Of a stretch of 49,739 bases of DNA, positions 10,898 to 34,151 are shown piece after piece. Each line of letters starts with the position of its first letter. Position 1 is the stretch's first letter. The notes under the pieces are model-generated. The model saw nothing but the letters and a program-made list of their open reading frames with translations, was not told the origin of the DNA and did not search any database. Position numbers and translations under genes: made by a program. Source of the stretch: an uncultured Burkholderiaceae bacterium (GTDB lineage Bacteria; Pseudomonadota; Gammaproteobacteria; Burkholderiales; Burkholderiaceae_C); contig CALIDR010000126.1 in the NCBI GenBank assembly GCA_938022295.1, forward strand, positions 1 through 49,739. The letters are read 5' to 3'.

Positions 10898-11036
10898 ATT
10901 GTAGACACCGCCCCCGTGTCGGCGGCCAGCCCCCGCCCGCGGCGGCCCGGGGTCACGCCGCCCGTGACGGGGGTCGCGCCCGGCAATGAGCCGCCATCGC
11001 CGGGCGCGCCCGCCGGTCACCCCCGCTGGCTACAAT
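10898..11036. promoter_or_regulatory. Divergent sigma-70 -10 elements for xseB and the Rieske oxygenase gene
   Basis: TACAAT on - at 10898-10903 and TACAAT on + at 11031-11036 within very GC-rich DNA. Confidence 0.5.
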
Positions 11037-11147
11037 CCCGCGCCCCGCGATGCCGTGCGTCCCGGGATCGGTACCGCCGCCCGGGTCGAGCTCTCGGGTT
11101 CGCGCCGGCGGCCGGGTTGACATCGGTTTTTGGAGATCCTGGGGATC

Positions 11148-12269
11148 ATGTCCAACCTGAGCATTGCGCGCGGGGCGCTCGAACGCAGCCGCTCGCAGCT
11201 TTCCGTCTCGACCTACTTCGACGAGGATCTGTACCGCCGCGAGCAGGCGCTGATCTTCGCGCGCGCGCCGCGCTACGTCGGCCACGAGCTGTCGGTGCCC
11301 GAGGTCGGCGACTACCACGCGCTGGCGCACGAGGGCGAGGGGCGCGCGCTGGTGCGCACCGCCGCCGGCGTGGAGCTGATCTCCAACGTCTGCCGCCACC
11401 GCCAGGCGGTGATGCTGCGCGGGCGCGGCCACACGCAGACGAACATCGTCTGCCCGCTGCACCGCTGGACGTACGACCTGCAGGGCCGGCTCGTCGGCGC
11501 GCCGCACTTCGACCACGACCCCTGCCTGGACCTGCGCCGCTACCCGACGCGGAGCTGGAACGGCCTCGTGTTCGAGGACAACGGGCGTGACGTCGCCGCC
11601 GAGCTCGCCCACCTGGGCCCGCGCGCCGAGCTCGACTTCACCGGCTACGTGCTCGACAAGGTGCACGTGCACGAGTGCGACTACAACTGGAAGACGTTCA
11701 TCGAGGTCTACCTCGAGGACTATCACGTCGGCCCGTTCCACCCCGGGCTCGGCCGCTTCGTGACCTGCGACGACCTGCGCTGGGAGTTCGGCCCCCACCA
11801 CAGCGTGCAGACGGTGGGCATCCACCAGGCGCTGGCGCGCCCCGGCTCCGACGTCTACCGCCGCTGGCACGACCAGGTGCTGCGCGTGGGCGACGGCACG
11901 CTGCCGCCGCACGGCGCGATCTGGCTGACCTACTACCCGACGCTGATGGTCGAGTGGTACCCGCACGTGCTCGTCGTCTCGACGCTGCACCCGAAGGGCC
12001 CGCGCAAGACGGTCAACCTCGTCGAGTTCTACTACCCCGAGGAGATCGCCGCCTTCGAGCGCGAGTTCGTCGAGGCCGAGCAGGCGGCCTACATGGAGAC
12101 CTGCGTCGAGGACGACGAGATCGCGCTGCGCATGGACGCCGGGCGGCTGGCGCTGTACGAGCGCGGCGACGACGAGTTCGGCCCCTACCAGAGCCCGATG
12201 GAAGACGGCATGCAGCACTTCCACGAGTGGTACCGGGCGCAGATGGGCATGGACCGGGTGCGCGCCTGA
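11148..12269 (+). CDS. Rieske non-heme iron oxygenase alpha subunit, probable putrescine 2-hydroxylase
   Basis: Rieske motif CRHR...CPLH; NWKTFIEVYLEDYHVGPFH mononuclear-iron motif; divergent from xseB. Confidence 0.85.
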   Translation: MSNLSIARGALERSRSQLSVSTYFDEDLYRREQALIFARAPRYVGHELSVPEVGDYHALAHEGEGRALVRTAAGVELISNVCRHRQAVMLRGRGHTQTNIVCPLHRWTYDLQGRLVGAPHFDHDPCLDLRRYPTRSWNGLVFEDNGRDVAAELAHLGPRAELDFTGYVLDKVHVHECDYNWKTFIEVYLEDYHVGPFHPGLGRFVTCDDLRWEFGPHHSVQTVGIHQALARPGSDVYRRWHDQVLRVGDGTLPPHGAIWLTYYPTLMVEWYPHVLVVSTLHPKGPRKTVNLVEFYYPEEIAAFEREFVEAEQAAYMETCVEDDEIALRMDAGRLALYERGDDEFGPYQSPMEDGMQHFHEWYRAQMGMDRVRA

Positions 12270-24943: not shown

Positions 24944-26074
24944 ATGCAGGCGTTCAGCGATTTCCTGGGCCGCCACCTCGGCGTCGTGCCGTGGGTGGCG
25001 ACGCTGATCGCCATCGCGCTGCTGACCGTCGCCGTCAACCAGGTCGCGCAGTTCGGGCTGCGCCGCATCGGCCGTGCGGCAGCGGCCTCGCCCGGCCTGT
25101 GGGCCGGGCCGCTCGTGCGCAGCGCCGCGCGCCCGCTGCTGGCCGCGCTGTGGGCGATCGGCCTGGGCTGGATGGCGCGCGTGGCGCAGCGCGAAAGCGA
25201 GTTCGCGTTCGTCGAACAGGCACTCGCGCTGCGCGACGTCGTGCTCGTCGCCTGCGCGGCGTGGTTCCTCGTCGAGCTCGCCGGCGAGGTCGGCGAGCGG
25301 GTCGTCGCACGGCGTCGGGCCCAGGGCGAGGAAGTCGACGTCACCACCGTCGACGCGCTGGTCAAGCTCGCCCGGCTGATCGCCGTCGTCGCAGCGGTGC
25401 TCGTCGCCGCGCAGACGCTGGGCTTCCAGATCGCGGGGCTGCTCGCGCTCGGCGGCGTCGGCGGGCTGGCGGTGGGACTGGCCGCGCGCGACCTGCTGGC
25501 CAACTTCTTCGGCGGGTTCACGATCTACCTCGACCGCCCGTTCAGCGTCGGCGAGTGGATCCGCAGCCCCGACAAGAGCCTCGAAGGCGTCGTCGAGCAC
25601 ATCAGCTGGCGCCACACGCGCATCCGCGCCTTCAACAAGAACCCGATCTACGTGCCCAACGCCGTGTTCACGAGCATCGTCGTCGAGAACCCGTCGCGGA
25701 TGAGCCACCGCCGCATCCGCGAGACGATCGGCGTGCGCTACCGCGACTTCGACGCCGTGCCGGCGATCGTCGACGACATCCGCCGGATGCTGCGCGAACA
25801 CCCGGCGATCGACGGCACGCAGACGCTGATCGTCAGCTTCACGCAGTTCGGCGCGTCGTCGCTCGACATCCTCGTCTACGCCTTCACGACGACGACCGGG
25901 TGGGTCGACTACCAGGCGCTGAAGCAGGACCTGCTGCTGCGCATTGGCCGCATCGTGGCCGCCCGCGGCGCCGAGATCGCGTTCCCGACCCGCACGCTGC
26001 ACGTCGCGGCGGACGCGGCCGCGGCGCCGTCGCCGCAGCACGCGGACCCGGCCGCGACACGCGCGGGCCGGTGA
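24944..26074 (+). CDS. MscS family mechanosensitive channel (YnaI-like)
   Basis: GGVGGLAVGLAARDLLANFFGG, DRPFSVGEWI, YVPN, IAFPTRTL. Confidence 0.93.
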   Translation: MQAFSDFLGRHLGVVPWVATLIAIALLTVAVNQVAQFGLRRIGRAAAASPGLWAGPLVRSAARPLLAALWAIGLGWMARVAQRESEFAFVEQALALRDVVLVACAAWFLVELAGEVGERVVARRRAQGEEVDVTTVDALVKLARLIAVVAAVLVAAQTLGFQIAGLLALGGVGGLAVGLAARDLLANFFGGFTIYLDRPFSVGEWIRSPDKSLEGVVEHISWRHTRIRAFNKNPIYVPNAVFTSIVVENPSRMSHRRIRETIGVRYRDFDAVPAIVDDIRRMLREHPAIDGTQTLIVSFTQFGASSLDILVYAFTTTTGWVDYQALKQDLLLRIGRIVAARGAEIAFPTRTLHVAADAAAAPSPQHADPAATRAGR

Positions 26075-26198
26075 TCGGCGCGGCGCGCGCTGCACCGGTC
26101 GCGCTGCGCCAGCGGCCGCGCTTCGCACCGACATCGAAACGTCACGCCGCTGGCGGAGCATGAACCCTCCGTACCCTTGGCCCGCGAAGGAGCACGAC

Positions 26199-27725
26199 AT
26201 GTGGGACGCCATCGTCATCGGCTCGGGAATCGGCGGGCTCGCCGCCGCGGCGGCGCTGGGCAAGCGCGGCAAGCGGGTGCTGGTGCTCGAGCAGCACCAC
26301 ACGCCGGGCGGGCAGACGCAGACGTTCCGCCGCCACGACTGGGTGTTCCCCACCGGCGTGCACTACCTGGGGGGCGCGGGGCCTCATCCGGGCCCCGAAG
26401 GCTGGTTCGGCCGCCTGCTGGGCTGGCTCACCGACGGCGAGCTGCGGTTCGCGCCGCTGGCCAACCCGTACGACATCGTGCGGCTGCCGGACTTCGAGTT
26501 CGGCATCGAACACCCCGAAGCGGCGTTCCGCGACGCGCTGCTGCGCGCCTTCCCGCACGAGCGCGGCGCGATCGTCGGCTGGTTCGAGGCCAGCGCCGAC
26601 GCGCGGCGCGCCGCGATGACGCTGATGCAGCTGCACAGCGTGCCGTCGTGGCTGGCCGCGGGGCTGCGGCTGCTGCGCGGTGCACAGGCCCGGCGCTGGG
26701 CCGAACGCACGCTGGCCGACGAGCTGGCCCGCATCGCCGACCCGCGGCTGCGCGCGGTGCTCGGCGCGCGCTGGGGCGACCACGGCGCGCCGCCGGCCGG
26801 GGCGCCGTTCGCCGAGCACGCGCTCGTGATGCACGCCTACGACGCCGGCGCGTACTACCCGGTGGGCGGCCCGGCGCGTTTCGCCGAGACGCTGCGCCGC
26901 CCGGTCGAGGCCGCCGGCGGCGAGCTGCGCGTGGGCGCCGACGTGCAGCACATCGTCGTGCGCGACGGCCGCGCCGCCGGCGTCGGCGTCGAGCACGGCG
27001 GCCAGCGGCGCGAGGAGAGCGGACGCTGGGTGATCTCGGCGGCCGGGGTGCCGAACACGGTGGCCCTGCTCGACGACGAGGTCGCCGCCGCCTGGCAGGA
27101 CACGCTGGCGGCCTTGAGGCCCGGTCACGCCCACCTGGCCCTGTTCATCGGGTTCGAAGGCGACGTCGCCGCTGCCGGCGCGAGCACGGCCAACCGCTGG
27201 GTGATGGAAAGCGAAGACGTCGGCCGCGTCTGGGGCGATCCGGCGGACGAGGACGCACCGGGATTCTTCGTCAGCTTCTCGTCGCTGAAGGATCCGGCCT
27301 GGAGCGGACCGCCTTCGGCCGAGGTCGTGGCGATCGTCGACCACGCGGTCTTCGCACGCTTCCTCGCCGAGCCCGACGCCACGCGCAGCGACGAGTACCT
27401 GGCCTACAAGGACTGGGTGGCCGAGCGGCTGCTCGCGCAGTGGAAGCGCCACTTTCCGGCGCTGGCGCCGATGGTGCGCTTCCACGAGCTGGCCACCCCG
27501 CTGACGCACCGCCGCTACGTGCGCACGCCGCAGGGCTCGATGTACGGCCTCGAGCTGTCGGCCGAGCGCCTGGCGTCGCCCGCGCTGCACATCCACACGC
27601 CGCTGCCGGGGCTGCTGCTGGCGGGGCAGGACGTCTTCGGCCCCGGCGTGCCGGCGGCGTTCACGAGCGGCCTGCTCGCCGCCGCGCACGCGGAGCCGGC
27701 GCTGTTCGCGCAGCTGCGCGGCTGA
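26199..27725 (+). CDS. FAD-dependent oxidoreductase of the phytoene desaturase/retinol saturase family
   Basis: DAIVIGSGIGG, LEQH..PGG, GVHYLG, GAYYPVGG, ATPLT, GSMYGL, LAGQDV; AAGGAG RBS. Confidence 0.85.
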   Translation: MWDAIVIGSGIGGLAAAAALGKRGKRVLVLEQHHTPGGQTQTFRRHDWVFPTGVHYLGGAGPHPGPEGWFGRLLGWLTDGELRFAPLANPYDIVRLPDFEFGIEHPEAAFRDALLRAFPHERGAIVGWFEASADARRAAMTLMQLHSVPSWLAAGLRLLRGAQARRWAERTLADELARIADPRLRAVLGARWGDHGAPPAGAPFAEHALVMHAYDAGAYYPVGGPARFAETLRRPVEAAGGELRVGADVQHIVVRDGRAAGVGVEHGGQRREESGRWVISAAGVPNTVALLDDEVAAAWQDTLAALRPGHAHLALFIGFEGDVAAAGASTANRWVMESEDVGRVWGDPADEDAPGFFVSFSSLKDPAWSGPPSAEVVAIVDHAVFARFLAEPDATRSDEYLAYKDWVAERLLAQWKRHFPALAPMVRFHELATPLTHRRYVRTPQGSMYGLELSAERLASPALHIHTPLPGLLLAGQDVFGPGVPAAFTSGLLAAAHAEPALFAQLRG

Positions 27726-27818
27726 GCGCCGCTGCACCGGCGGCGGATCGACGACGACGCGCGTCGCGCGGCGGCACGCGCCGAGCCGCGCCGCGCCCGC
27801 GCACGCCGCCGCCGGCGG

Positions 27819-27850
27819 CCCATCAAATCTTCACAAGACCTCGATAACGT
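27819..27850 (+). promoter_or_regulatory. Putative PHO box promoter of the glycosyltransferase-radical SAM-MFS operon
   Basis: CCCAT-caaatc-TTCAC-(10 bp)-TAACGT, same geometry as the phoX and phoD promoters. Confidence 0.62.
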
Positions 27851-27888
27851 TCGAAGGGTTCGGGATCGGCGCCGGAAGGAGTGATGCG

Positions 27889-29064
27889 ATGGCGACGCAA
27901 GCAAGCCCGCGGCCGCGAAATCGGCGAGGCGCCCGCATCCTCTACGCCGTACACGGCTACGGGCGCGGCCACGCGACGCGCTCGCTGGCGCTGCTCGCGG
28001 AACTGCGCCCGCGTCACGAACTGCTCGTGCTCGCCGGCGGCGACGCCTACCAGACGATGGCGTCCGAATGGCCCGTCGTGCGCATCCCCACGCTCGGCTT
28101 CGCCTACGGCGCGCGCAGCGGCCGGCGCAGCAACTGGCACACGCTGCGCTACAACCTGCCAGCGGCGCTGGATGCCTGGTGGCGCGGCCCGGTGTTCGCG
28201 ATGGTCGCCGACGCGATGCGCGCCTTCGCGCCCGACGTCGTGATCTCCGACGCCGAGACCTGGTCGCACCGGGTGGCCGCCAGGCTCGGCGTGCCGCGCA
28301 TCGGCTTCGACCACATCGGCATCCTCGCCCACTGCCGCCCCGACGTCGACCCGCGCGACCGCGTCGAGGCCGCGCTCGACGTCTTCGTCTACCGCGCGCT
28401 GATGGGGCGTCCCGAGCGGGTCCTCGTCTCCAGCTTCTACGACGCGCCGCCGCGCCACGCCGGCGTGCGCGTCGTGCCGACGCTGCCGCGGCGCGAGGTG
28501 CGCGACGCCGTCGCCTGCGACGGCGAGCACCTGCTCGTGTACCTGAACCAGGGCCATCACCAGTTCGACGACCGGCTGCGCGCCGTGCTGGGCCAGCTCG
28601 GGCTGCCGGTGCACGTGTACGGCACGCCGTGGCGCGGCCAGCAGGGGCGGCTGCACTTCATGCCGCCGGGCAACCGCAGCTTCGTCGACGACCTCGCCGC
28701 CTGCCGCGCGGTGCTCAGCACCGCGGGCAACCAGCTCGTCGGCGAGGCGATGCACCTGGGCAAGCCGCTGCTCGTGATGCCGGAGGACTGCGTCGAGCAG
28801 CGGCTCAACGCCCGCGCGGTCGAGCGCCTGGGCATCGGCATGCGCGTCGAGCCGCGCGCGCTCACGGCGGCGCACCTGCAACGGCTGCTGCAGCAGCGCG
28901 ACGCGTTCGCGGCGCGCATGCGCGAGCTGCGCCGCGACGGCCTGGCCGAAGCGGTCGCGGCGATCGAGGGTTTCGTCGCCGAGCTCGCCGGCTCGACGCC
29001 GGGATCGCGGCTGACGCAGCCGCCCCTGCTGCCGGCCTTCGCACCGCAGCGGGCGCCGACGTGA
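27889..29064 (+). CDS. GT-B glycosyltransferase, MJ1255/VC2487 (Glyco_trans_1_3)-like
   Basis: ILYAVHGYGRGHATRS, PDVVISDAE, LLVYL, TAGNQLVGEAMHLGKPLLVMP, EQRLNA; AAGGAG RBS. Confidence 0.85.
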   Translation: MATQASPRPRNRRGARILYAVHGYGRGHATRSLALLAELRPRHELLVLAGGDAYQTMASEWPVVRIPTLGFAYGARSGRRSNWHTLRYNLPAALDAWWRGPVFAMVADAMRAFAPDVVISDAETWSHRVAARLGVPRIGFDHIGILAHCRPDVDPRDRVEAALDVFVYRALMGRPERVLVSSFYDAPPRHAGVRVVPTLPRREVRDAVACDGEHLLVYLNQGHHQFDDRLRAVLGQLGLPVHVYGTPWRGQQGRLHFMPPGNRSFVDDLAACRAVLSTAGNQLVGEAMHLGKPLLVMPEDCVEQRLNARAVERLGIGMRVEPRALTAAHLQRLLQQRDAFAARMRELRRDGLAEAVAAIEGFVAELAGSTPGSRLTQPPLLPAFAPQRAPT

Positions 29065-30143
29065 ACCCGGCCCGCCTCGCGCTCGACGTCGTGCGCAACC
29101 GCGCCGGCGCGGTGCCGCGGCCACGCTGGTGCACCTACCTCGTGTGCTTCCGCTGCAACGCGCGCTGCGGCATGTGCGACTCGTGGAAGATGAAGCGCGG
29201 CGCCGAGATGACGCCGGCGCAGGTGCGCGACGTCTTCGGCCGCATCGGCAGGCTCGACGTCGTGCGGCTGACCGGCGGCGAGCCGTTCCTGCGCGACGAC
29301 TTCGCCGACGTCGCGCAGGCGGTGTTCGAGGCATCGCGGCCGGCCGTCGTCCACGTCACGACCAACGGCTCGTTCCCGGACCGCGTGGCCGAGTTCGCGC
29401 GCCGGTTCACCGCCCCGCGGCGGCTGCGCTTCATGGTCTCGCTCGACGGCCTCGAGGCCACCCACGACGCCAACCGCGGCGCCGACGTGCGCTTCGCCAC
29501 CGCGCTGGACACCGTGCGCCGGCTGGCCGGCGAGCGCGCGCGCGGCGTGCGGGTCAGCGTCAACCACACCGTGATCTCGCGCGCCTCGCTGGCCGACCAC
29601 GACGAGCTGGCGCGGCAGTGCGGCGCGCTCGGCGTCGAGGTGCAGGCGGTGCTGGCCTACGAGGAGTCGTCGATGTACGGCCGGCGGCGGCACGGCGGGC
29701 GCAGCGACGACCTGATCCCGATCCGCGGCTACCCGCTGCATCCGGCGCTGCCGGCCGACGAGGCGCTTCGGTTCGCGCGCCGCCAGCTCGACGGCGTGGC
29801 CGCGCTGCGCGACCCGGCGCTGCGCATCGGCAAGCGCTACTACCTGCGCGGCCTCGTGCAGCGCCTCGAAGGTGCGGCGCAGCCCCGGCCACGGCCGCGT
29901 TGCGTCGCCCTGCGCAGCCACCTGCGCCTGCTGCCCGACGGCAGCGTGCCGGTGTGCCAGTTCAACACCGAGAAGGTCGGGCACCTGCCCACGCAGGCGT
30001 TCGACGAAGTCTGGCGCGGCGCGGCTGCGCGCGAGCAGCGCGCCTGGGTCGACGCCTGCACCGGCTGCTGGGCCGAGTGCGAAGTGGTCCCGAACGCGGT
30101 CTATTCGGGCGACATCGTGCGCGAGGTGTTCCGCGGACGCTGA
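29061..30143 (+). CDS. Radical SAM protein with a C-terminal SPASM/twitch domain
   Basis: CNARCGMC (CX3CX2C), LTGGEPFLR, TTNG, VSLDG, C...PDGSVPVC...CTGCWAEC; GTGA overlap with the GT gene. Confidence 0.92.
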   Translation: MNPARLALDVVRNRAGAVPRPRWCTYLVCFRCNARCGMCDSWKMKRGAEMTPAQVRDVFGRIGRLDVVRLTGGEPFLRDDFADVAQAVFEASRPAVVHVTTNGSFPDRVAEFARRFTAPRRLRFMVSLDGLEATHDANRGADVRFATALDTVRRLAGERARGVRVSVNHTVISRASLADHDELARQCGALGVEVQAVLAYEESSMYGRRRHGGRSDDLIPIRGYPLHPALPADEALRFARRQLDGVAALRDPALRIGKRYYLRGLVQRLEGAAQPRPRPRCVALRSHLRLLPDGSVPVCQFNTEKVGHLPTQAFDEVWRGAAAREQRAWVDACTGCWAECEVVPNAVYSGDIVREVFRGR

Positions 30144-30156
30144 AGCGACGCCGACG

Positions 30157-31401
30157 ATCGCGACCGCGCACCGGCGCGCGCGGTGGCGCGTCGGCGCGCT
30201 GTTCGTCGCGTCGTGCGCGCGTGCCGCGGCCGACGCCGGGCTGCGGCTGTTCGTCGTGCTGCTGGCCGCCGCGGGCTCGCCGGCCGAACGCGAGTCGGCG
30301 TGGCACCTGGTGATGGCGCTGTTCATGCTGCCGGCGGTGCTGATGGCGCCGCTCGCCGGCGCGGTCGGCAACAGCCTGCCCCGGCGCGCGGTGCTCGCCG
30401 GGTCGGCCGCGTTCGCGCTGGCCGCGATGCTCGCATTCGGGCTTCACGGCGGCGCGTGGCACCTGGCGGTCGTGCTCGTCGCGCTCGGCAGCGCGGTGTT
30501 CGTCCCCGCGCGCTTCGCGCTGCTGCCCGCGGCCGCGACCGACGCCGGCTGGCCGCTGATGAGGGTGGCAGCCTGGATCGAGGGCGGCGCGGTGCTGGCG
30601 ATGGCCTCGGGCATGGTGCTCGCCGGCGTGCTGGCGACGGTCGGGCCGTGGGGCGGCGTGCCGGCGACGCTGTGGGCGCTGTGGCTGCTGGGCCTGCTGT
30701 GCCTGGTGGCGTCGTGGCCGGCACGGTTCGCCGCCGACCGGCCGCGCCCCCAGGCACCGGGTGCCGCGCTGCGCGGCTTCTTCACCGACCTGCGCCGCAT
30801 CGCGGCCGACCGCGGCGCCCTCGTGCCGCTGCTCGCGCTGGCCGCACTGCGCGGCCTGGCGGCCGCGGCGGTCGGCGCGTTGATCGCCGCGGTGCTCGAC
30901 CGCGAGGGCGGCGGGCCTCAGGCGGCGTACGCGGCGCTGCTGTCGGTGGCGCTGCTGTCGATGGCCGGCGCCGGCGCCGGGTCGGCGCTCGCCGGGCTGC
31001 TGCGCGACCGCGGCCGCGCGCTGGCGCTGGTGCCGTTCGGCGCCAGCGGCATCGCGGCCGCGCTGCTCGCCGTCGCCCAGGCGCCAACGGTCCCGCCGTC
31101 GGCCTGCCTCGTCGTCGGGCTGCTCGGAGGTCTCGTCAACGTGCCGCTGCTGGTCGCCTACCAGAGCGCCGTGCCGGCCGACGCGCGCGGCAACGGCATG
31201 GCGATCCTGAACGCCGCTGGCTACCTGGGCATCGGCATGCTCGCGCTCGCGATGGCGGCGCTGAGCGCGTCGGCGACGCTATCGGCCACCGGCCAGCTCG
31301 TCGTGCTCGCCGCGCTCGCCGGCGCCGGCGCCGCAGTGGCGTGGTGGCGGCTGCTGCCGCGCGTGCGCGACCTGCTGCGCGGCCGTCGCGCATGGTCGTA
31401 G
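30157..31401 (+). CDS. MFS transporter, LplT/Aas-MFS-like (start codon uncertain)
   Basis: About 12 hydrophobic segments; LFMLPAVLMAPLAGAVGNSLPRR, FVPARFALLP, NVPLLVAYQSAVPADARGNGMAILN. Confidence 0.75.
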   Translation: MATAHRRARWRVGALFVASCARAAADAGLRLFVVLLAAAGSPAERESAWHLVMALFMLPAVLMAPLAGAVGNSLPRRAVLAGSAAFALAAMLAFGLHGGAWHLAVVLVALGSAVFVPARFALLPAAATDAGWPLMRVAAWIEGGAVLAMASGMVLAGVLATVGPWGGVPATLWALWLLGLLCLVASWPARFAADRPRPQAPGAALRGFFTDLRRIAADRGALVPLLALAALRGLAAAAVGALIAAVLDREGGGPQAAYAALLSVALLSMAGAGAGSALAGLLRDRGRALALVPFGASGIAAALLAVAQAPTVPPSACLVVGLLGGLVNVPLLVAYQSAVPADARGNGMAILNAAGYLGIGMLALAMAALSASATLSATGQLVVLAALAGAGAAVAWWRLLPRVRDLLRGRRAWS

Positions 31402-31424
31402 GACTGCCGCCACCAGGCCGGCGG

Positions 31425-34151
31425 TCAGTGCGCCTGGTCCCAGTTCGCGCCGACGCCGACTTCGGCCACCAGCGGCACCGACAGCTCGGCCACGCCCGCC
31501 ATCAGGCGCGGCACTTCGGCGCGCGCCCAGTCGAGTTCGGCGTCGGGCACCTCGAACACGAGTTCGTCGTGCACCTGCATGATCATCCGCATGGCCTTGC
31601 TTTCGCGGTCGATCGCGCCCTGCACCGCGATCATCGCGAGCTTGATCAGGTCGGCCGCGGTGCCCTGCATCGGCGCGTTGATCGCCTGCCGCTCGGCGGC
31701 CGAGCGGCGCGGGCCGCTGCCGCCCTTGATCTCGGGCAGCCACACGCGCCGCCCGAACAGCGTCTCGACGTAGCCCTGCTCGGCCGCGCGCTGGCGCGTC
31801 TCGTCCATGTAGCGCTTGACGCCGGCGAAGCGCTGGAAGTAGCGGTCGATGTAGTCCTTCGCGGCCTTGGTCTCGATGCCGAGGTTGCTCGCCAGGCCGA
31901 AGGCGCCCATGCCGTAGATGAGGCCGAAGTTGATCACCTTCGCGTAGCGGCGCTGCTCGCTGCTGACCGCCTCGAGCGGCACGCCGAAGACTTCAGCCGC
32001 GGTGGCGCGGTGCACGTCCAGCCCCTGCTCGAAGGCGTGCCGCAGGCCGGGGTCGCCGCTGATGTGGGCCATGATGCGCAGCTCGATCTGCGAGTAGTCC
32101 GCCGACACGATCGCGTGCCCCGGCGGGGCGACGAAGGCCTCGCGGATGCGCCGCCCCTCGGGAGTGCGGATCGGGATGTTCTGCAGGTTCGGGTCGTTGC
32201 TCGCCAGCCGCCCCGTCACCGCCACCGCCTGCGCGTAGATCGTGTGCACGCGGCCGGTGGCCGGGTTGACCATCTGCGGCAGCTTGTCGGTGTAGGTGCC
32301 CTTGAGCTTGGCGAGGCTGCGGTGCTCGAGGATGCGCGCCGGCAGCGGGTAGTCGGCGGCCAGCTCGGTCAGCACGTCCTCGTCGGTGGAGGGCGCGCCG
32401 CTGGCGGTGCGCTTCTTCACCGGCAGGCCGAGCTTGCCGAACAGGATCTCGCCGATCTGCTTCGGGCTGCCGAGGTTGAACGGCTGCCCGGCCAGGTCGT
32501 GCACCTCGCGCTCGAGTGCGGCGAGCCGCTCGGCGAGTTCGCGGCTCTGGCGCGCGAGCAGCTCGGCGTCGATCAGCACGCCGTGGCGCTCGACGCGGGC
32601 GAGGATCGCGCTCACCGGCAGCTCGATGTCCTGGTAGACGCGCCGCAGCCCCGGCTCGGCGGCGATACGCGGCCACAGCACGTGGTGCAGCTGCAGCGCC
32701 ATCTCGCTGTCCTCGCCGGCGTAGGTCGTCGCGCGCTGCACGTCGACCTGCGCGAACGGGATCTGGCTGGCGCCCTTGCCGCACAGGTCCTCGTAGCTCA
32801 GGCCACGGCGGTGCAGGTGCCGCTCGGCGAGCTTTTCGAGGCTGTGCGCGAGGTGCGCCTCGAGCACGTAGCTCTCGAGCAGCGTGTCGTGCGCGACGCC
32901 GGCGAGCGCGACGCCGTGGTTGGCGAACACGTGGGTGTCGTACTTCAGGTGCTGGCCGACCTTGGCCGCGCGCGGGTCCTCGAGCCAGGGTTTCAGCGCC
33001 GCCAGCACGTCGGCCAGCGGCAGCTGCGCCGGCGCGCCGGCGTAGTCGTGGGCGAGCGGCACGTAGGCCGCCTCGAGCGGCTGCACGGCCAAGCTCAGGC
33101 CCACCAGCCGGGCGTGCATCGGGTCGAGCGAGTCGGTCTCGGTGTCGAGGGCGACGAGATCGGCGCTGCGGATGCGGTCGAGCCAGTGCCGCAGGCGCTC
33201 CATCGTCAGCACCGTCTCGTAGCGGCCCTCGGCCGGCGGGTCGCCGGCGTGCGCCGGGGCGGCAGCCGCGGGGGCCGGGGCGCTGCCCTCGAGCTCGCGC
33301 TTCCAGGTGCGAAAGCCGTAGCGCTCGTAGAAGCCGAGCAGCCCGGCGCGGTCGACGTCGCGCAGCGCCAGCGCGTCGAGCGAGGGCCAGCCGGGCACCG
33401 CGCCCGACAGGTCGCAGTCGGTGGCCACCGTGACCAGGCGCCTGGCCAGCGGCAGCCAGTCGAGGGCCTTCTTCAGGTTCTCGCCGGCGGCGCCCTTGAT
33501 CGTGTCGGCGGCGGCGATCACGCCGTCGAGCGAGCCGTGCTCGGCGATCCACTTGGCGGCCGTCTTCGGCCCGACCTTGTCCACCCCGGGCACGTTGTCG
33601 ACCGCGTCGCCCACCAGCGTCAGGTAGTCGACGATGCGCTCGGGCGGCACGCCGAACTTGGCCTTCACGCCCTCGACGTCGAGCGTCTCGTTGCTCATCG
33701 TGTTGACGAGCGTGACCCGCGGCGTCACGAGCTGGGCGAGATCCTTGTCGCCGGTGGAGATCACGACGCGGCGCCCCGTCTGCTCGGCGCGCCGGGCGAG
33801 CGTGCCGATCGTGTCGTCGGCCTCGATGCCGGGCACCTCGAGCACCGGCCAGCCGAGCAGGCGCACCACTTCGTGGATCGGCTCGATCTGCTGCGCCAGC
33901 GGCTCGGGCATCGGCGCGCGGTGCGCCTTGTAGGCGGGATACCAGGCGTCGCGGAACGTCGGCCCCTTGGCGTCGAACACGCACGCCGCGTGCGCGGCCG
34001 GCACCTGCTCGCGCAGGCGCTTGAGCATGGCGATGAAGCCGTGGATCGCCCCGGTCGGGAAGCCGTCCGGGCTCGTCAGGTTGGGCAGCGCGTGGTAGGC
34101 GCGATAGAGGTAGCTCGAACCGTCGACGAGCAGCAGGTTGTCGGCTGGCAT
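31425..34151 (-). CDS. polA: DNA polymerase I
   Basis: LVDGSSYLYRAYHA, EADDTIG, DTETD, TGRLASNDPNLQNIP, DYSQIELR, KVINFGLIYG, QVHDEL. Confidence 0.98.
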   Translation of the reverse strand: MPADNLLLVDGSSYLYRAYHALPNLTSPDGFPTGAIHGFIAMLKRLREQVPAAHAACVFDAKGPTFRDAWYPAYKAHRAPMPEPLAQQIEPIHEVVRLLGWPVLEVPGIEADDTIGTLARRAEQTGRRVVISTGDKDLAQLVTPRVTLVNTMSNETLDVEGVKAKFGVPPERIVDYLTLVGDAVDNVPGVDKVGPKTAAKWIAEHGSLDGVIAAADTIKGAAGENLKKALDWLPLARRLVTVATDCDLSGAVPGWPSLDALALRDVDRAGLLGFYERYGFRTWKRELEGSAPAPAAAAPAHAGDPPAEGRYETVLTMERLRHWLDRIRSADLVALDTETDSLDPMHARLVGLSLAVQPLEAAYVPLAHDYAGAPAQLPLADVLAALKPWLEDPRAAKVGQHLKYDTHVFANHGVALAGVAHDTLLESYVLEAHLAHSLEKLAERHLHRRGLSYEDLCGKGASQIPFAQVDVQRATTYAGEDSEMALQLHHVLWPRIAAEPGLRRVYQDIELPVSAILARVERHGVLIDAELLARQSRELAERLAALEREVHDLAGQPFNLGSPKQIGEILFGKLGLPVKKRTASGAPSTDEDVLTELAADYPLPARILEHRSLAKLKGTYTDKLPQMVNPATGRVHTIYAQAVAVTGRLASNDPNLQNIPIRTPEGRRIREAFVAPPGHAIVSADYSQIELRIMAHISGDPGLRHAFEQGLDVHRATAAEVFGVPLEAVSSEQRRYAKVINFGLIYGMGAFGLASNLGIETKAAKDYIDRYFQRFAGVKRYMDETRQRAAEQGYVETLFGRRVWLPEIKGGSGPRRSAAERQAINAPMQGTAADLIKLAMIAVQGAIDRESKAMRMIMQVHDELVFEVPDAELDWARAEVPRLMAGVAELSVPLVAEVGVGANWDQAH

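What the first reader, a model, noticed from the sequence alone, without database searches (positions are those of the whole stretch)
27819..31401. Candidate new PHO-regulated system: glycosyltransferase + radical SAM/SPASM + LplT-like transporter (phosphorus-free glycolipid remodelling?)
Seen: three tightly packed co-directional genes (GTGA overlap between the first two) with their own promoter, CCCAT-N6-TTCAC-N10-TAACGT. This geometry matches the promoters of phoX, phoD and the phytase-like gene in the same window. Known: PhoB binds GTCAT-like half-sites at an 11-bp period in place of the -35 element; phosphate-starved bacteria replace phospholipids with glycolipids using GT-B enzymes; SPASM/twitch radical SAM enzymes such as BtrN oxidise or epimerise sugar or cyclitol carbons; LplT flips lysolipids. 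Inference: the operon makes a modified phosphorus-free glycolipid or envelope glycoconjugate through glycosylation, radical tailoring and flipping. I know of no described pathway with this trio.
Basis: partly seen in the sequence, partly recalled or inferred. Interest (0 to 1): 0.85.

Follow-up and report, generated by a model that had tools for sequence, protein, structure and literature searches.

The report
Phosphate-starvation glycolipid radical-tailoring cassette
A sugar-transferring enzyme and an iron-sulfur radical enzyme that sit side by side, and are sometimes fused, in several bacterial phyla likely switch on when phosphate is scarce to build and chemically alter a phosphorus-free sugar lipid, with a predicted lipid-flipping transporter added in one sub-lineage.

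Summary
The three genes and the promoter string are real. The conserved core is the pair of glycosyltransferase (PF13528) and radical SAM enzyme. The two are adjacent in 15 of 16 GTDB loci and 5 of 5 metagenome loci, and are fused in three proteins. The LplT-like MFS is a third partner only in a sub-lineage.

PHO control is well supported but indirect. The box/-10 geometry occurs 7 times in the 3.3 Mb genome, mostly before phosphate-scavenging genes. A motif learned only from pstS promoters marks 9 of 21 orthologous upstream regions at an 11-bp period. The distal half-site here is weak (rank 257 of 1533 with a host matrix).

The radical enzyme is twitch-type (five C-terminal Cys, BtrN-like), not SPASM. 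The GT is GT1-like, with invariant His28, Asp121 and Arg31, and its subfamily also sits beside PlcP-like genes.

Best reading: it makes a beta-glucuronosyl (or hexosyl) diacylglycerol and rewrites the sugar, most likely by epimerisation. Acceptor, donor and reaction are untested. No description was found in ten literature searches.

The parts
27819..27834 (+). PHO-box-like element: weak distal half-site (CCCAT) and good proximal half-site (TTCAC) at an 11-bp period, in place of -35
   Evidence: Sequence; strict pattern, 5 in the window and 7 in the genome; same position and spacing kept in L091, where the half-sites read TTCGT and TTCAC; weak by host matrix
27845..27850 (+). -10-like hexamer TAACGT, 10 bp after the proximal half-site
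   Evidence: Same N10 spacing as phoX, phoD and the phytase-like gene; aligned with TAGCCT in L091
27889..29064 (+). GT-B glycosyltransferase, PF13528 (MJ1255/VC2487-like), GT1-like; invariant His28, Arg31, Asp121, Glu303-Gln304; predicted inverting UDP-sugar transferase
   Evidence: Pfam and NCBIfam; 72-sequence alignment (window numbering = alignment +10); model pLDDT 95.5; fold matches YojK Z 28.1, UGT51 Z 27.3
29061..30143 (+). Radical SAM enzyme: CxxxCxMC (C32/C36/C39), GGEP, and a twitch-type C-terminal domain with five conserved Cys (C281, C299, C333, C336, C340); no N-terminal peptide-recognition domain
   Evidence: model pLDDT 93.1; folds SkfB Z 22.9 and BlsE Z 21.6; C-terminal profile best matches BtrN, E=9e-5
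30169..31401 (+). LplT-like MFS transporter without the acyltransferase domain that most relatives carry; true start unresolved (first canonical GTG at 30256 lies after the predicted first helix)
   Evidence: 43-47% identical to Gemmataceae MFS and MFS-PlsC proteins

Best explanation
The glycosyltransferase and radical SAM genes form a conserved, sometimes fused pair that is likely induced by PhoB-type regulators in phosphate starvation and is predicted to make a phosphorus-free membrane glycolipid with a chemically altered sugar head. Step 1 (inferred): the inverting GT moves a sugar, most likely glucuronic acid from UDP-GlcA, onto diacylglycerol, giving a beta-glycoside. The known Agt is annotated as an alpha-transferase. 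Step 2 (inferred): the twitch radical SAM enzyme abstracts a ring hydrogen from that sugar. I commit to epimerisation: four Cys would hold the one auxiliary cluster and the spare Cys340 would return the hydrogen on the other face, as Cys249 does in NeoN. Step 3 (inferred, sub-lineage only): the LplT-like MFS flips the lyso-form or precursor across the inner membrane. Shown: gene pairing, fusions, folds, conserved residues, promoter motif statistics. Not shown: induction, donor, acceptor, reaction, transport. The confidence is for 'PHO-induced glycolipid synthesis plus radical head-group tailoring'. The specific epimerase version is about 0.2.
For: Pairing: GT adjacent in 15 of 16 GTDB loci with a full-length rSAM at 36% identity or more, and rSAM adjacent in 5 of 5 metagenome GT loci. 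All 7 rSAM hits in 401 Planctomycetota genomes follow a GT: 4 this family, 3 a GT2. Three in-frame GT-rSAM fusions of 684, 762 and 748 aa. PHO: strict geometry 7 times in the genome, before phoX, phoD, the phytase-like gene, a PAP2 phosphatase, the ATPase beside plcP, a Rieske gene and the trio. De novo motif CTTCAC at lag 11 scores 142 against 114-120 at other lags, and 0 of 40 control sets reach it. A motif learned only from pstS-family upstream regions marks 9 of 21 orthologue upstream regions at lag 11, against 2-4 of 21 at other lags and 8 of 104 controls. The trio lies downstream of the phytase-phoD-mscS-oxidoreductase run, in the polA-ppk slot where 2 of 5 congeners carry plcP next to polA. 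Lipid context: sister GTs sit next to PlcP-like genes in 5 of 28 Planctomycetota loci and share the AGNQ/VSSF signature; pair convergent with plcP in G365; OlsF-like gene with its own box directly after the rSAM in L027. The host has PhoB over cut-off, a PlcP-like gene and a boxed GT4. Chemistry: His28/Asp121/Arg31 mirrors His29/Asp131/Arg32 of UGT73P12, where the Arg sets UDP-GlcA specificity (PMC6851746, passages). The nearest small-molecule rSAM fold is BlsE, which acts on a glucuronide (PMC3715490, passages). C340 is conserved in the GT-linked rows but is Ser in the clade paired with a B12 rSAM.
Against: With a host-type matrix the trio's promoter is unremarkable: 2.2 bits and p=0.385, rank 689 (box only) or 257 (box plus -10) of 1533. 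Orthologues were not clearly enriched with that matrix (p=0.056). 12 of 21 orthologue upstream regions show no significant box. PlcP-like genes were found in only 4 of 15 pair-carrying genomes (incomplete MAGs), and the host's GT4 had a relative in 1 of 4 others. The GT's best fold matches are small-molecule and sterol GT1 enzymes, while the galactolipid synthase MGD1 ranks lower (Z 19.5). SkfB, a peptide-modifying enzyme, scores slightly above BlsE. An Arg three residues after the His also occurs in GT-B proteins that do not use glucuronate (recalled). The position of C340 relative to the active site could not be measured. Most flanking genes of the pair are unrelated housekeeping genes. The MFS start is unresolved and the gene may be decaying.
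Confidence: 0.55

Rival explanations
1. Same pathway, different radical chemistry: the enzyme oxidises a sugar hydroxyl to a ketone (BtrN-like), decarboxylates or dehydrates a uronate (BlsE-like), or contracts the ring (Cds/HpnJ-like), possibly on the UDP-sugar before transfer. The confidence given is the part of the 0.55 that does not go to epimerisation.
For: C-terminal profile best matches BtrN. The BlsE fold covers residues 19-354 and shares the CxxxCxMC motif. A tentatively assigned keto-glucuronosyl-DAG is reported in B. cenocepacia and was not made by Agt alone (PMC13691135, passages). Conserved R69, R78, K258, R268, H287, R289 and R327 suit an anionic substrate.
Against: A fifth conserved Cys is unexplained by these reactions, and decarboxylation would remove the negative charge that a phosphatidylglycerol substitute needs (inference).
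Confidence: 0.35
2. The pair is PHO-regulated but glycosylates something other than a glycerolipid: a soluble small molecule (a BlsD/BlsE-like glucuronide), a sterol or hopanoid, an amino-lipid hydroxyl or a surface glycan.
For: GT fold closest to YojK/YjiC and sterol glucosyltransferase UGT51; PlcP-like gene missing from 11 of 15 genomes searched; weak similarity to cytosylglucuronate synthase TIGR04467 (16 bits); OlsF-like neighbour in L027.
Against: No squalene-hopene cyclase found in 6 genomes of the host genus, 2 of them near-complete. No conserved biosynthetic cluster around the pair. PlcP linkage of sister GTs and an LplT-like partner point to glycerolipids.
Confidence: 0.25
3. In this genome the cassette is a horizontally acquired passenger with a decayed donor-type box. 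It is expressed only by read-through from the upstream PHO genes, under another OmpR-family regulator, or not at all.
For: Weak distal half-site. No terminator-like site between 27725 and 27889. GT not found in 300 family genomes and rSAM not found in 399 class genomes. MFS lacks a canonical start. TTCAC-N6-TTCAC also resembles the CreB site (recalled).
Against: Box and -10 bases are kept in L091 while the flanking DNA diverges. GT and rSAM frames are intact and codon use is close to the host's. The other strict-pattern sites are mostly phosphate genes. Read-through would still be PHO-dependent.
Confidence: 0.12
4. The rSAM is a peptide maturase or a heme/cofactor enzyme, as database labels say (SkfB/PqqE family, Fe-coproporphyrin or heme synthase), and the GT glycosylates its product.
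For: SkfB is the top sequence and fold match; source labels.
Against: All NCBIfam equivalog scores are at most 55 bits against cut-offs of 170-725. There is no N-terminal recognition domain, since the cluster motif starts at residue 32. No recurring neighbour family besides the GT was found among ORFs of 90 aa or more; shorter peptides were not searched. Fusions are to the GT only.
Confidence: 0.06

Closest known systems
PlcP-Agt phosphate-starvation lipid remodelling (MGDG and GADG; PMC4796936, 10.1101/2021.04.14.439775, PMC13691135, passages read)
   Same: PHO-type boxes, a GT-B enzyme, and linkage of the GT subfamily (and of the pair in G365) to PlcP-like genes.
   Different: Agt is a group-1 (GT4-type) alpha-transferase. 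This GT is PF13528 and GT1-like with a His-Asp dyad, so predicted inverting. No radical SAM or MFS partner appears in the passages read; 'radical SAM' had 0 occurrences in these papers in the search listings.
BlsD/BlsE (MilC/MilG) of blasticidin S biosynthesis (PMC3715490, passages)
   Same: A UDP-glucuronate transferase paired with a radical SAM enzyme acting on the glucuronide; fold Z 21.6, rmsd 3.4 over 290 residues; CxxxCxMC motif.
   Different: About 19% identity; TIGR04466 33 bits against 400 and TIGR04467 16 against 300; no antibiotic cluster; PHO-type promoter and lipid neighbours.
Twitch sugar enzymes BtrN (dehydrogenase) and NeoN (C5 epimerase with H-donor Cys249; PMC10991966, passages)
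   Same: The C-X17-C hairpin and following segment align with BtrN; one spare Cys, as in the epimerases.
   Different: Longer core, a GT partner and fusions, and no aminoglycoside cluster. No direct comparison with NeoN was possible.
HpnJ (BHT cyclitol ether) and calditol synthase Cds (review PMC13459092: outline and passages)
   Same: A radical SAM enzyme remodels a sugar already attached to a membrane lipid.
   Different: Those act on hopanoid or archaeal tetraether lipids by proposed ring contraction. The review's section list has no diacylglycerol-glycolipid or phosphate-starvation example. No hopene cyclase was found in the host genus.
LplT/Aas lysophospholipid salvage (function recalled)
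   Same: The MFS matches the N-terminal part of Aas-type NF006386, and 86 of 111 listed relatives are MFS-PlsC fusions.
   Different: The acyltransferase domain is absent. The stand-alone form is its own clade (100% local support) that tracks the GT-rSAM pair.

Membership tests
Radical SAM superfamily | CxxxCxxC motif, GGEP motif, partial TIM barrel | tested here: met
   C32/C36/C39 and G72-P75 conserved; PF04055 54 bits against cut-off 29.5; fold matches
SPASM domain (two auxiliary clusters) | Seven or eight conserved C-terminal Cys (PMC9477430, passage) | tested here: not met
   Five conserved C-terminal Cys only, although PF13186 scores 29.8 against 21.5
Twitch domain (one auxiliary cluster) | Three or four C-terminal Cys ligands in a BtrN-like hairpin | tested here: met
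   C281 and C299 align with the first two BtrN Cys, E=9e-5; C333/C336 conserved; C340 is additional
Twitch domain (one auxiliary cluster) | A second [4Fe-4S] cluster actually bound | not testable with these tools
   Needs iron quantitation or EPR
BlsE / cytosylglucuronate decarboxylase (TIGR04466) | Score over curated cut-off | tested here: not met
   32.6 bits against 400
NirJ/AhbC/AhbD, HpnH, MoaA, mycofactocin and RiPP maturase equivalogs | Score over curated cut-offs | tested here: not met
   At most 55 bits against 170-725
NeoN-type radical epimerases | Non-ligand Cys placed to donate H to the substrate radical | tested here: inconclusive
PF13528 Glyco_trans_1_3 | Score over gathering threshold | tested here: met
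   196 bits against 25
TIGR00661 MJ1255/VC2487 subfamily | Score over curated cut-off | tested here: not met
   101 bits against 195.9, though it is the best match over nearly the whole profile
GT1-type inverting UDP-glycosyltransferases | GT-B fold, His-Asp dyad, terminal acidic-Gln pair | tested here: met
   H28, D121, E303-Q304 invariant in 72 sequences; top folds are GT1; definition from PMC11096472, passages
Agt (GT4) DAG glycosyltransferases | Glycos_transf_1 / Glyco_transf_4 domains | tested here: not met
   No such Pfam hit at E<=0.001
DAG glycosyltransferase (activity) | Forms glycosyl-DAG | not testable with these tools
   Context only
MurG | TIGR01133 over cut-off; sole lipid II GlcNAc transferase | tested here: not met
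   18 bits against 250; full-length MurG-like genes elsewhere in 4 of 5 pair-carrying genomes
Aas-type acyl-ACP--phospholipid acyltransferase fusion (NF006386) | MFS plus acyltransferase and AMP-ligase domains | tested here: not met
   MFS part only, 86 bits against 1221
LplT-like lysolipid flippase | Transport of lysolipid | not testable with these tools
   Homology to MFS-PlsC fusions only
PHO regulon | 11-bp-period half-sites overlapping -35, shared with pho genes | tested here: inconclusive
   Met by the strict pattern and the cross-phylum motif; weak by host matrix
PHO regulon | PhoB binding and induction at low phosphate | not testable with these tools
   Needs EMSA or transcript data

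The most novel reading that the evidence does not exclude
A second, Agt-independent route to an anionic phosphorus-free membrane lipid: an inverting GT makes beta-glucuronosyl-diacylglycerol and a twitch radical SAM epimerase converts it to an epimer such as L-iduronosyl-diacylglycerol (the D-gluco to L-ido change that NeoN performs on neomycin). The lipid would have the same mass as GADG and would be hidden inside 'GADG' peaks in culture and environmental lipidomics.
Probability: 0.15. Interest if true: 0.87.

Novelty: new variant of a known kind. Interest (0 to 1): 0.66.

Why it matters
Phosphate-starvation lipid remodelling is known mainly through PlcP, Agt, Bta and Ols enzymes, none of which uses radical chemistry on the head group in the papers read. 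This pair would give a function to two poorly characterised families at once: PF13528/MJ1255-like GTs, and a radical SAM family with at least 994 clusters at 90% identity. It would also add a glycerolipid head-group reaction to the short list of lipid-modifying radical SAM enzymes. It is directly testable with two genes, and natural single-chain fusions exist. The work also yields a candidate PHO-box consensus (CTT[AC]A[CT] at an 11-bp period) for Planctomycetota.

Tried and rejected
GT-rSAM complex prediction gave no answer (score 0.00); not used as evidence. No RNA holder was listed for 26000-31500; not used as evidence. The ESM Atlas search with homologue P0120 returned only generically named radical SAM clusters. 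A host-type matrix built from three window promoters plus the printed consensus did not single out the trio or its orthologues. The sigma-70 scan found no promoter, and the GC-rich intergenic hairpin is no more stable than shuffles (z -0.37). P. aeruginosa PA3218 was checked as a possible family member; the paper describes it as an Agt homologue. MurG replacement, suggested by the pair following ftsW in L015 and L094, was rejected. A hopanoid acceptor in the host is unsupported. P0055, a 620-aa GT-rSAM protein, has a low-complexity middle segment that looks frameshifted and was not counted as a fusion. Trees are quick or FastTree runs without bootstrap, midpoint-rooted; the donor lineage was not tested with test_one_clade, and near-duplicate loci were left out. 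Earlier-finding look-ups by sequence, by place and by one word set returned nothing. The HygY paper is not held; only its title was seen, in a reference list. No supplements were read; supplementary tables of PMC4796936 (plcP neighbourhoods) and PMC5193443 could mention this GT family.


Full report
Observation. The three co-directional ORFs are present with coding-type base composition: GT 27889-29064, rSAM 29061-30143 (GTGA overlap) and an MFS ending at 31401, convergent with polA. Pfam gives PF13528 (E 1e-57), Radical_SAM plus SPASM, and MFS_1. No NCBIfam model passes its cut-off for any of the three. The window is rich in phosphate genes: ppx, ppk, a phytase-like gene, phoD and phoX. The host genome G000 is 79.5% complete and unnamed; I read it as a high-GC Burkholderiales-type bacterium (inference, not from a call).

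Promoter in this genome. The string CCCAT-N6-TTCAC-N10-TAACGT lies at 27819-27850. The pattern CRY-N6-KTCAY-N10-TANNNT matches 5 times in the window (0.02 expected) and 7 times in 3.3 Mb, always intergenic, against a mean of 0.06 in shuffled upstream regions. The seven sites precede phoX, phoD, the phytase-like gene, the trio, a Rieske oxygenase, a PAP2 phosphatase and the P-type ATPase next to plcP. The pattern was written after seeing four of the sites, but all of it except the last Y follows from phoX, phoD and phytase alone. Against this, matrices that weigh the whole distal half-site rank the trio poorly: 2.2 bits and p=0.385, and rank 689 (box only) or 257 (box plus -10) of 1533 upstream regions. 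A pstS-derived matrix from other phyla ranks it 88 or 33. In L091 (GT 77%, rSAM 79%, MFS 74%, different flanking genes) the box and -10 keep their spacing while nearby DNA diverges. No terminator-like site separates the trio from the upstream gene, which has its own host-type box (rank 10), so read-through is also possible. The genome encodes PhoB over cut-off; its pstS promoter is off the contig end.

What is conserved. The rSAM has at least 994 relatives at E<=1e-30 among 7998 scored candidates. In GTDB, 80 of 462 confirmed loci were returned. Of the 16 with a full-length match at 36% identity or more, 15 have the PF13528 GT adjacent (14 upstream, 1 divergent; two pairs are near-duplicates) and one (L023) does not. 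All 5 metagenome loci found with the GT carry the rSAM. In 401 Planctomycetota genomes the rSAM profile hit 7: 4 follow this GT and 3 follow a GT2. A search for longer forms found three in-frame GT-rSAM fusions. Other neighbours do not recur. The cassette is patchy: the GT was not found in 300 genomes of the host family, and the rSAM was not found in 399 of the class or as an orthologue in 40 relatives. Quick trees place the window proteins among Planctomycetota-dominated rows, nearest Gemmataceae for the GT. Codon use is close to the host's. Horizontal acquisition is likely; the donor was not tested.

The MFS. It was next to the pair in 1 of 16 GTDB loci (L021, convergent) and 1 of 5 metagenome loci (L091, co-directional). 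Of 111 proteins listed, 86 are MFS-PlsC fusions, 24 are stand-alone relatives and 1 is the window's own. The window protein falls in a stand-alone clade with 100% local support. Nine of 24 stand-alone records share their longest-contig length with a listed rSAM relative, against 0 of 86 fused ones. This is indirect evidence that the trio is a real unit in a sub-lineage. The window frame has no canonical start before the region homologous to the first helix; the first GTG is at 30256.

PHO-type boxes across phyla. In 21 orthologous upstream regions a de novo direct-repeat search peaks at lag 11 (CTTCAC; 142 against 114-120 at lags 9, 10, 12 and 13), and none of 40 equal-sized control sets reaches the observed score (138.6 against mean 115, sd 5.5). 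As an independent test, I took 16 PstS-family loci from 10 pair-carrying genomes. Their upstream regions give the same motif de novo, again only at lag 11 (96 against 61-73). That pstS-only motif puts 10 of 21 orthologue regions above the 90th percentile of 104 controls (p 7e-4; other lags p 0.003-0.05). It is significant against dinucleotide shuffles in 9 of 21 at lag 11, against 2-4 of 21 at other lags and 8 of 104 controls, five of which face the same intergenic region or lie in L027's phosphate island. The regions are not phylogenetically independent, and 12 of 21 show no significant box; two of these follow ftsW inside an operon. For the trio itself this motif gives p=0.035, but it pairs CTTCAC with the downstream half-site rather than CCCAT.

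Lipid context. Related GTs without the rSAM sit beside a metallophosphoesterase in 5 of 28 Planctomycetota loci (L104-L131, 1.5-kb flanks; two near-identical) and in none of the Myxococcota loci as a PlcP-like gene. I call these PlcP-like from recalled motifs; no NCBIfam model names them. They fall on the same starred side of the GT tree as the rSAM-linked GTs and share the AGNQ and VSSF signatures. In G365 the pair is convergent with such a gene. In L027 an OlsF-like gene (374 bits, cut-off 620) follows the rSAM with its own box. L018 has PAP2, ArnT-like and GT2 genes divergent from the pair, and L011 has phoD nearby. G000 has a PlcP-like gene with four half-sites and a boxed GT4. In congeners G005 and G003 a PlcP-like gene follows polA, where G000 has the trio and its phosphate-gene run; the other three congeners have unrelated genes there. 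Against this, a PlcP-like gene was found in only 4 of 15 pair-carrying genomes.

Enzyme anatomy. The GT model (pLDDT 95.5) matches GT1 enzymes best: YojK Z 28.1 (rmsd 3.3, 327 aligned), sterol glucosyltransferase UGT51 27.3, MurG 25.0, MGD1 19.5. His28, Arg31, Asp121 and Glu303-Gln304 are invariant in 72 sequences. The His-Asp dyad implies inversion (PMC11096472, passages). In UGT73P12 His29/Asp131 are catalytic and Arg32 confers UDP-glucuronate specificity (PMC6851746, passages). The same His+3 spacing here is a lead, not proof, because these are remote homologues. The rSAM model (pLDDT 93.1) matches SkfB (Z 22.9, rmsd 3.6, 285 aligned) and BlsE (Z 21.6, rmsd 3.4, 290 aligned). It has five conserved C-terminal Cys; SPASM domains have seven or eight and twitch domains three or four (PMC9477430, passage). 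The C-terminal profile best matches BtrN (E 9e-5), aligning C281 and C299 with its first two Cys. C340 is kept in GT-linked rows and replaced by Ser in a distant clade paired with a B12 rSAM. NeoN uses a spare Cys249 as H donor for C5 epimerisation (PMC10991966, passage).

Mechanism. I propose PhoB-type induction, transfer of a sugar (most likely glucuronate) to diacylglycerol with inversion, radical alteration of the sugar (epimerisation via C340 as first choice; oxidation, decarboxylation/dehydration or ring contraction as alternatives), and flipping of a lyso-form by the MFS where present. Shown are the pairing, fusions, folds, residues and motif statistics. Every biochemical step is inferred. 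Confidence is 0.55 for the pathway class and about 0.2 for the epimerase version.

Literature and novelty. Ten full-text searches listed no paper describing this pair. Family identifiers (MJ1255, VC2487, TIGR00661, PF13528) occurred in 5 papers, 4 listed with one mention each, seen as listings only. The library lacks most subscription papers. Passages were read in 10.1101/2021.04.14.439775, PMC13691135, PMC13700237, PMC3715490, PMC4796936, PMC5193443, PMC10991966, PMC9477430, PMC11096472 and PMC6851746; outline and passages in PMC13459092; no supplements. Four earlier AI notes describe PHP-GT4 (Agt-like) genes paired with a radical SAM enzyme in other genomes. I did not test them; they suggest a parallel arrangement and are not counted as support. 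Verdict: a new variant of known phosphate-starvation glycolipid remodelling, built from two uncharacterised families; interest 0.66.

Noticed in passing
window 26160-27725: Carotenoid isomerase/desaturase-like FAD oxidoreductase directly upstream of the trio carries a host-type PHO box (rank 10 of 1533); found in only 1 of 5 congeners.
   Followed up: partly
window 11007-11036: The strict PHO-box/-10 pattern also precedes a Rieske ring-hydroxylating oxygenase gene (11130-12269); either a chance site or an unexpected PHO target.
   Followed up: no
G000:C47:1-7490 (L190): Cluster of class-III aminotransferase, phosphatidylserine decarboxylase, diglucosyl-DAG-synthase-like GT28, PlcP-like gene with four half-sites, and a P-type ATPase with a strong box.
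   Followed up: partly
L210:308-1327 and L212:7-1053: Congeners G005 and G003 have a PlcP-like gene right after polA (before ppk in G005), the slot that holds the phytase-phoD-mscS-oxidoreductase-trio run in G000.
   Followed up: partly
L015:2872-9071 and L094:1437-4911: The GT-rSAM pair follows ftsW (murF-mraY-ftsW in L015) in the position usually taken by murG; a full-length MurG-like gene lies elsewhere in the L015 genome.
   Followed up: yes
L199, L202, L203: Relatives of the rSAM (33-42%) that keep the five-Cys tail follow GT2 glycosyltransferases instead, and in L199 precede a second radical SAM gene.
   Followed up: partly
L026, L028-L031: A distant rSAM clade with Ser in place of C340 is paired with a B12-binding radical SAM gene rather than a GT.
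   Followed up: no
L043:2-2254; L032-L036, L039: A GT4-radical SAM/SPASM fusion (L043) and GT4-GT4-rSAM runs show further, more distant GT-rSAM pairings.
   Followed up: no
L027:3734-10882: Compact phosphate island: boxed DUF4388/TonB and PstS-like/OmpA genes, divergent GT and rSAM with boxes on both strands, and a boxed OlsF-like gene.
   Followed up: partly
L011 and P0116; L018 and L019: Taxon labels conflict: the L011 rSAM (labelled Alcaligenaceae) is identical to P0116 (labelled Gemmataceae), and L018 (Chitinophaga) is nearly identical to L019 (Planctomycetaceae), so the phylum range is less certain than record titles suggest.
   Followed up: no
L105:1504-2065: A close GT relative (65%) in G548 is split across two frames and has no rSAM beside it.
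   Followed up: no
G000:C15:1212-6659, C241:1964-3466, C328:12391-14025, C129:2149-3177, C24:8110-8760: Further high-ranking host PHO-box targets: a large exo/endo-phosphatase with RTX-type repeats, a second phoD, PhoH2, an ArnC-like GT2 and a DUF4254 gene.
   Followed up: no
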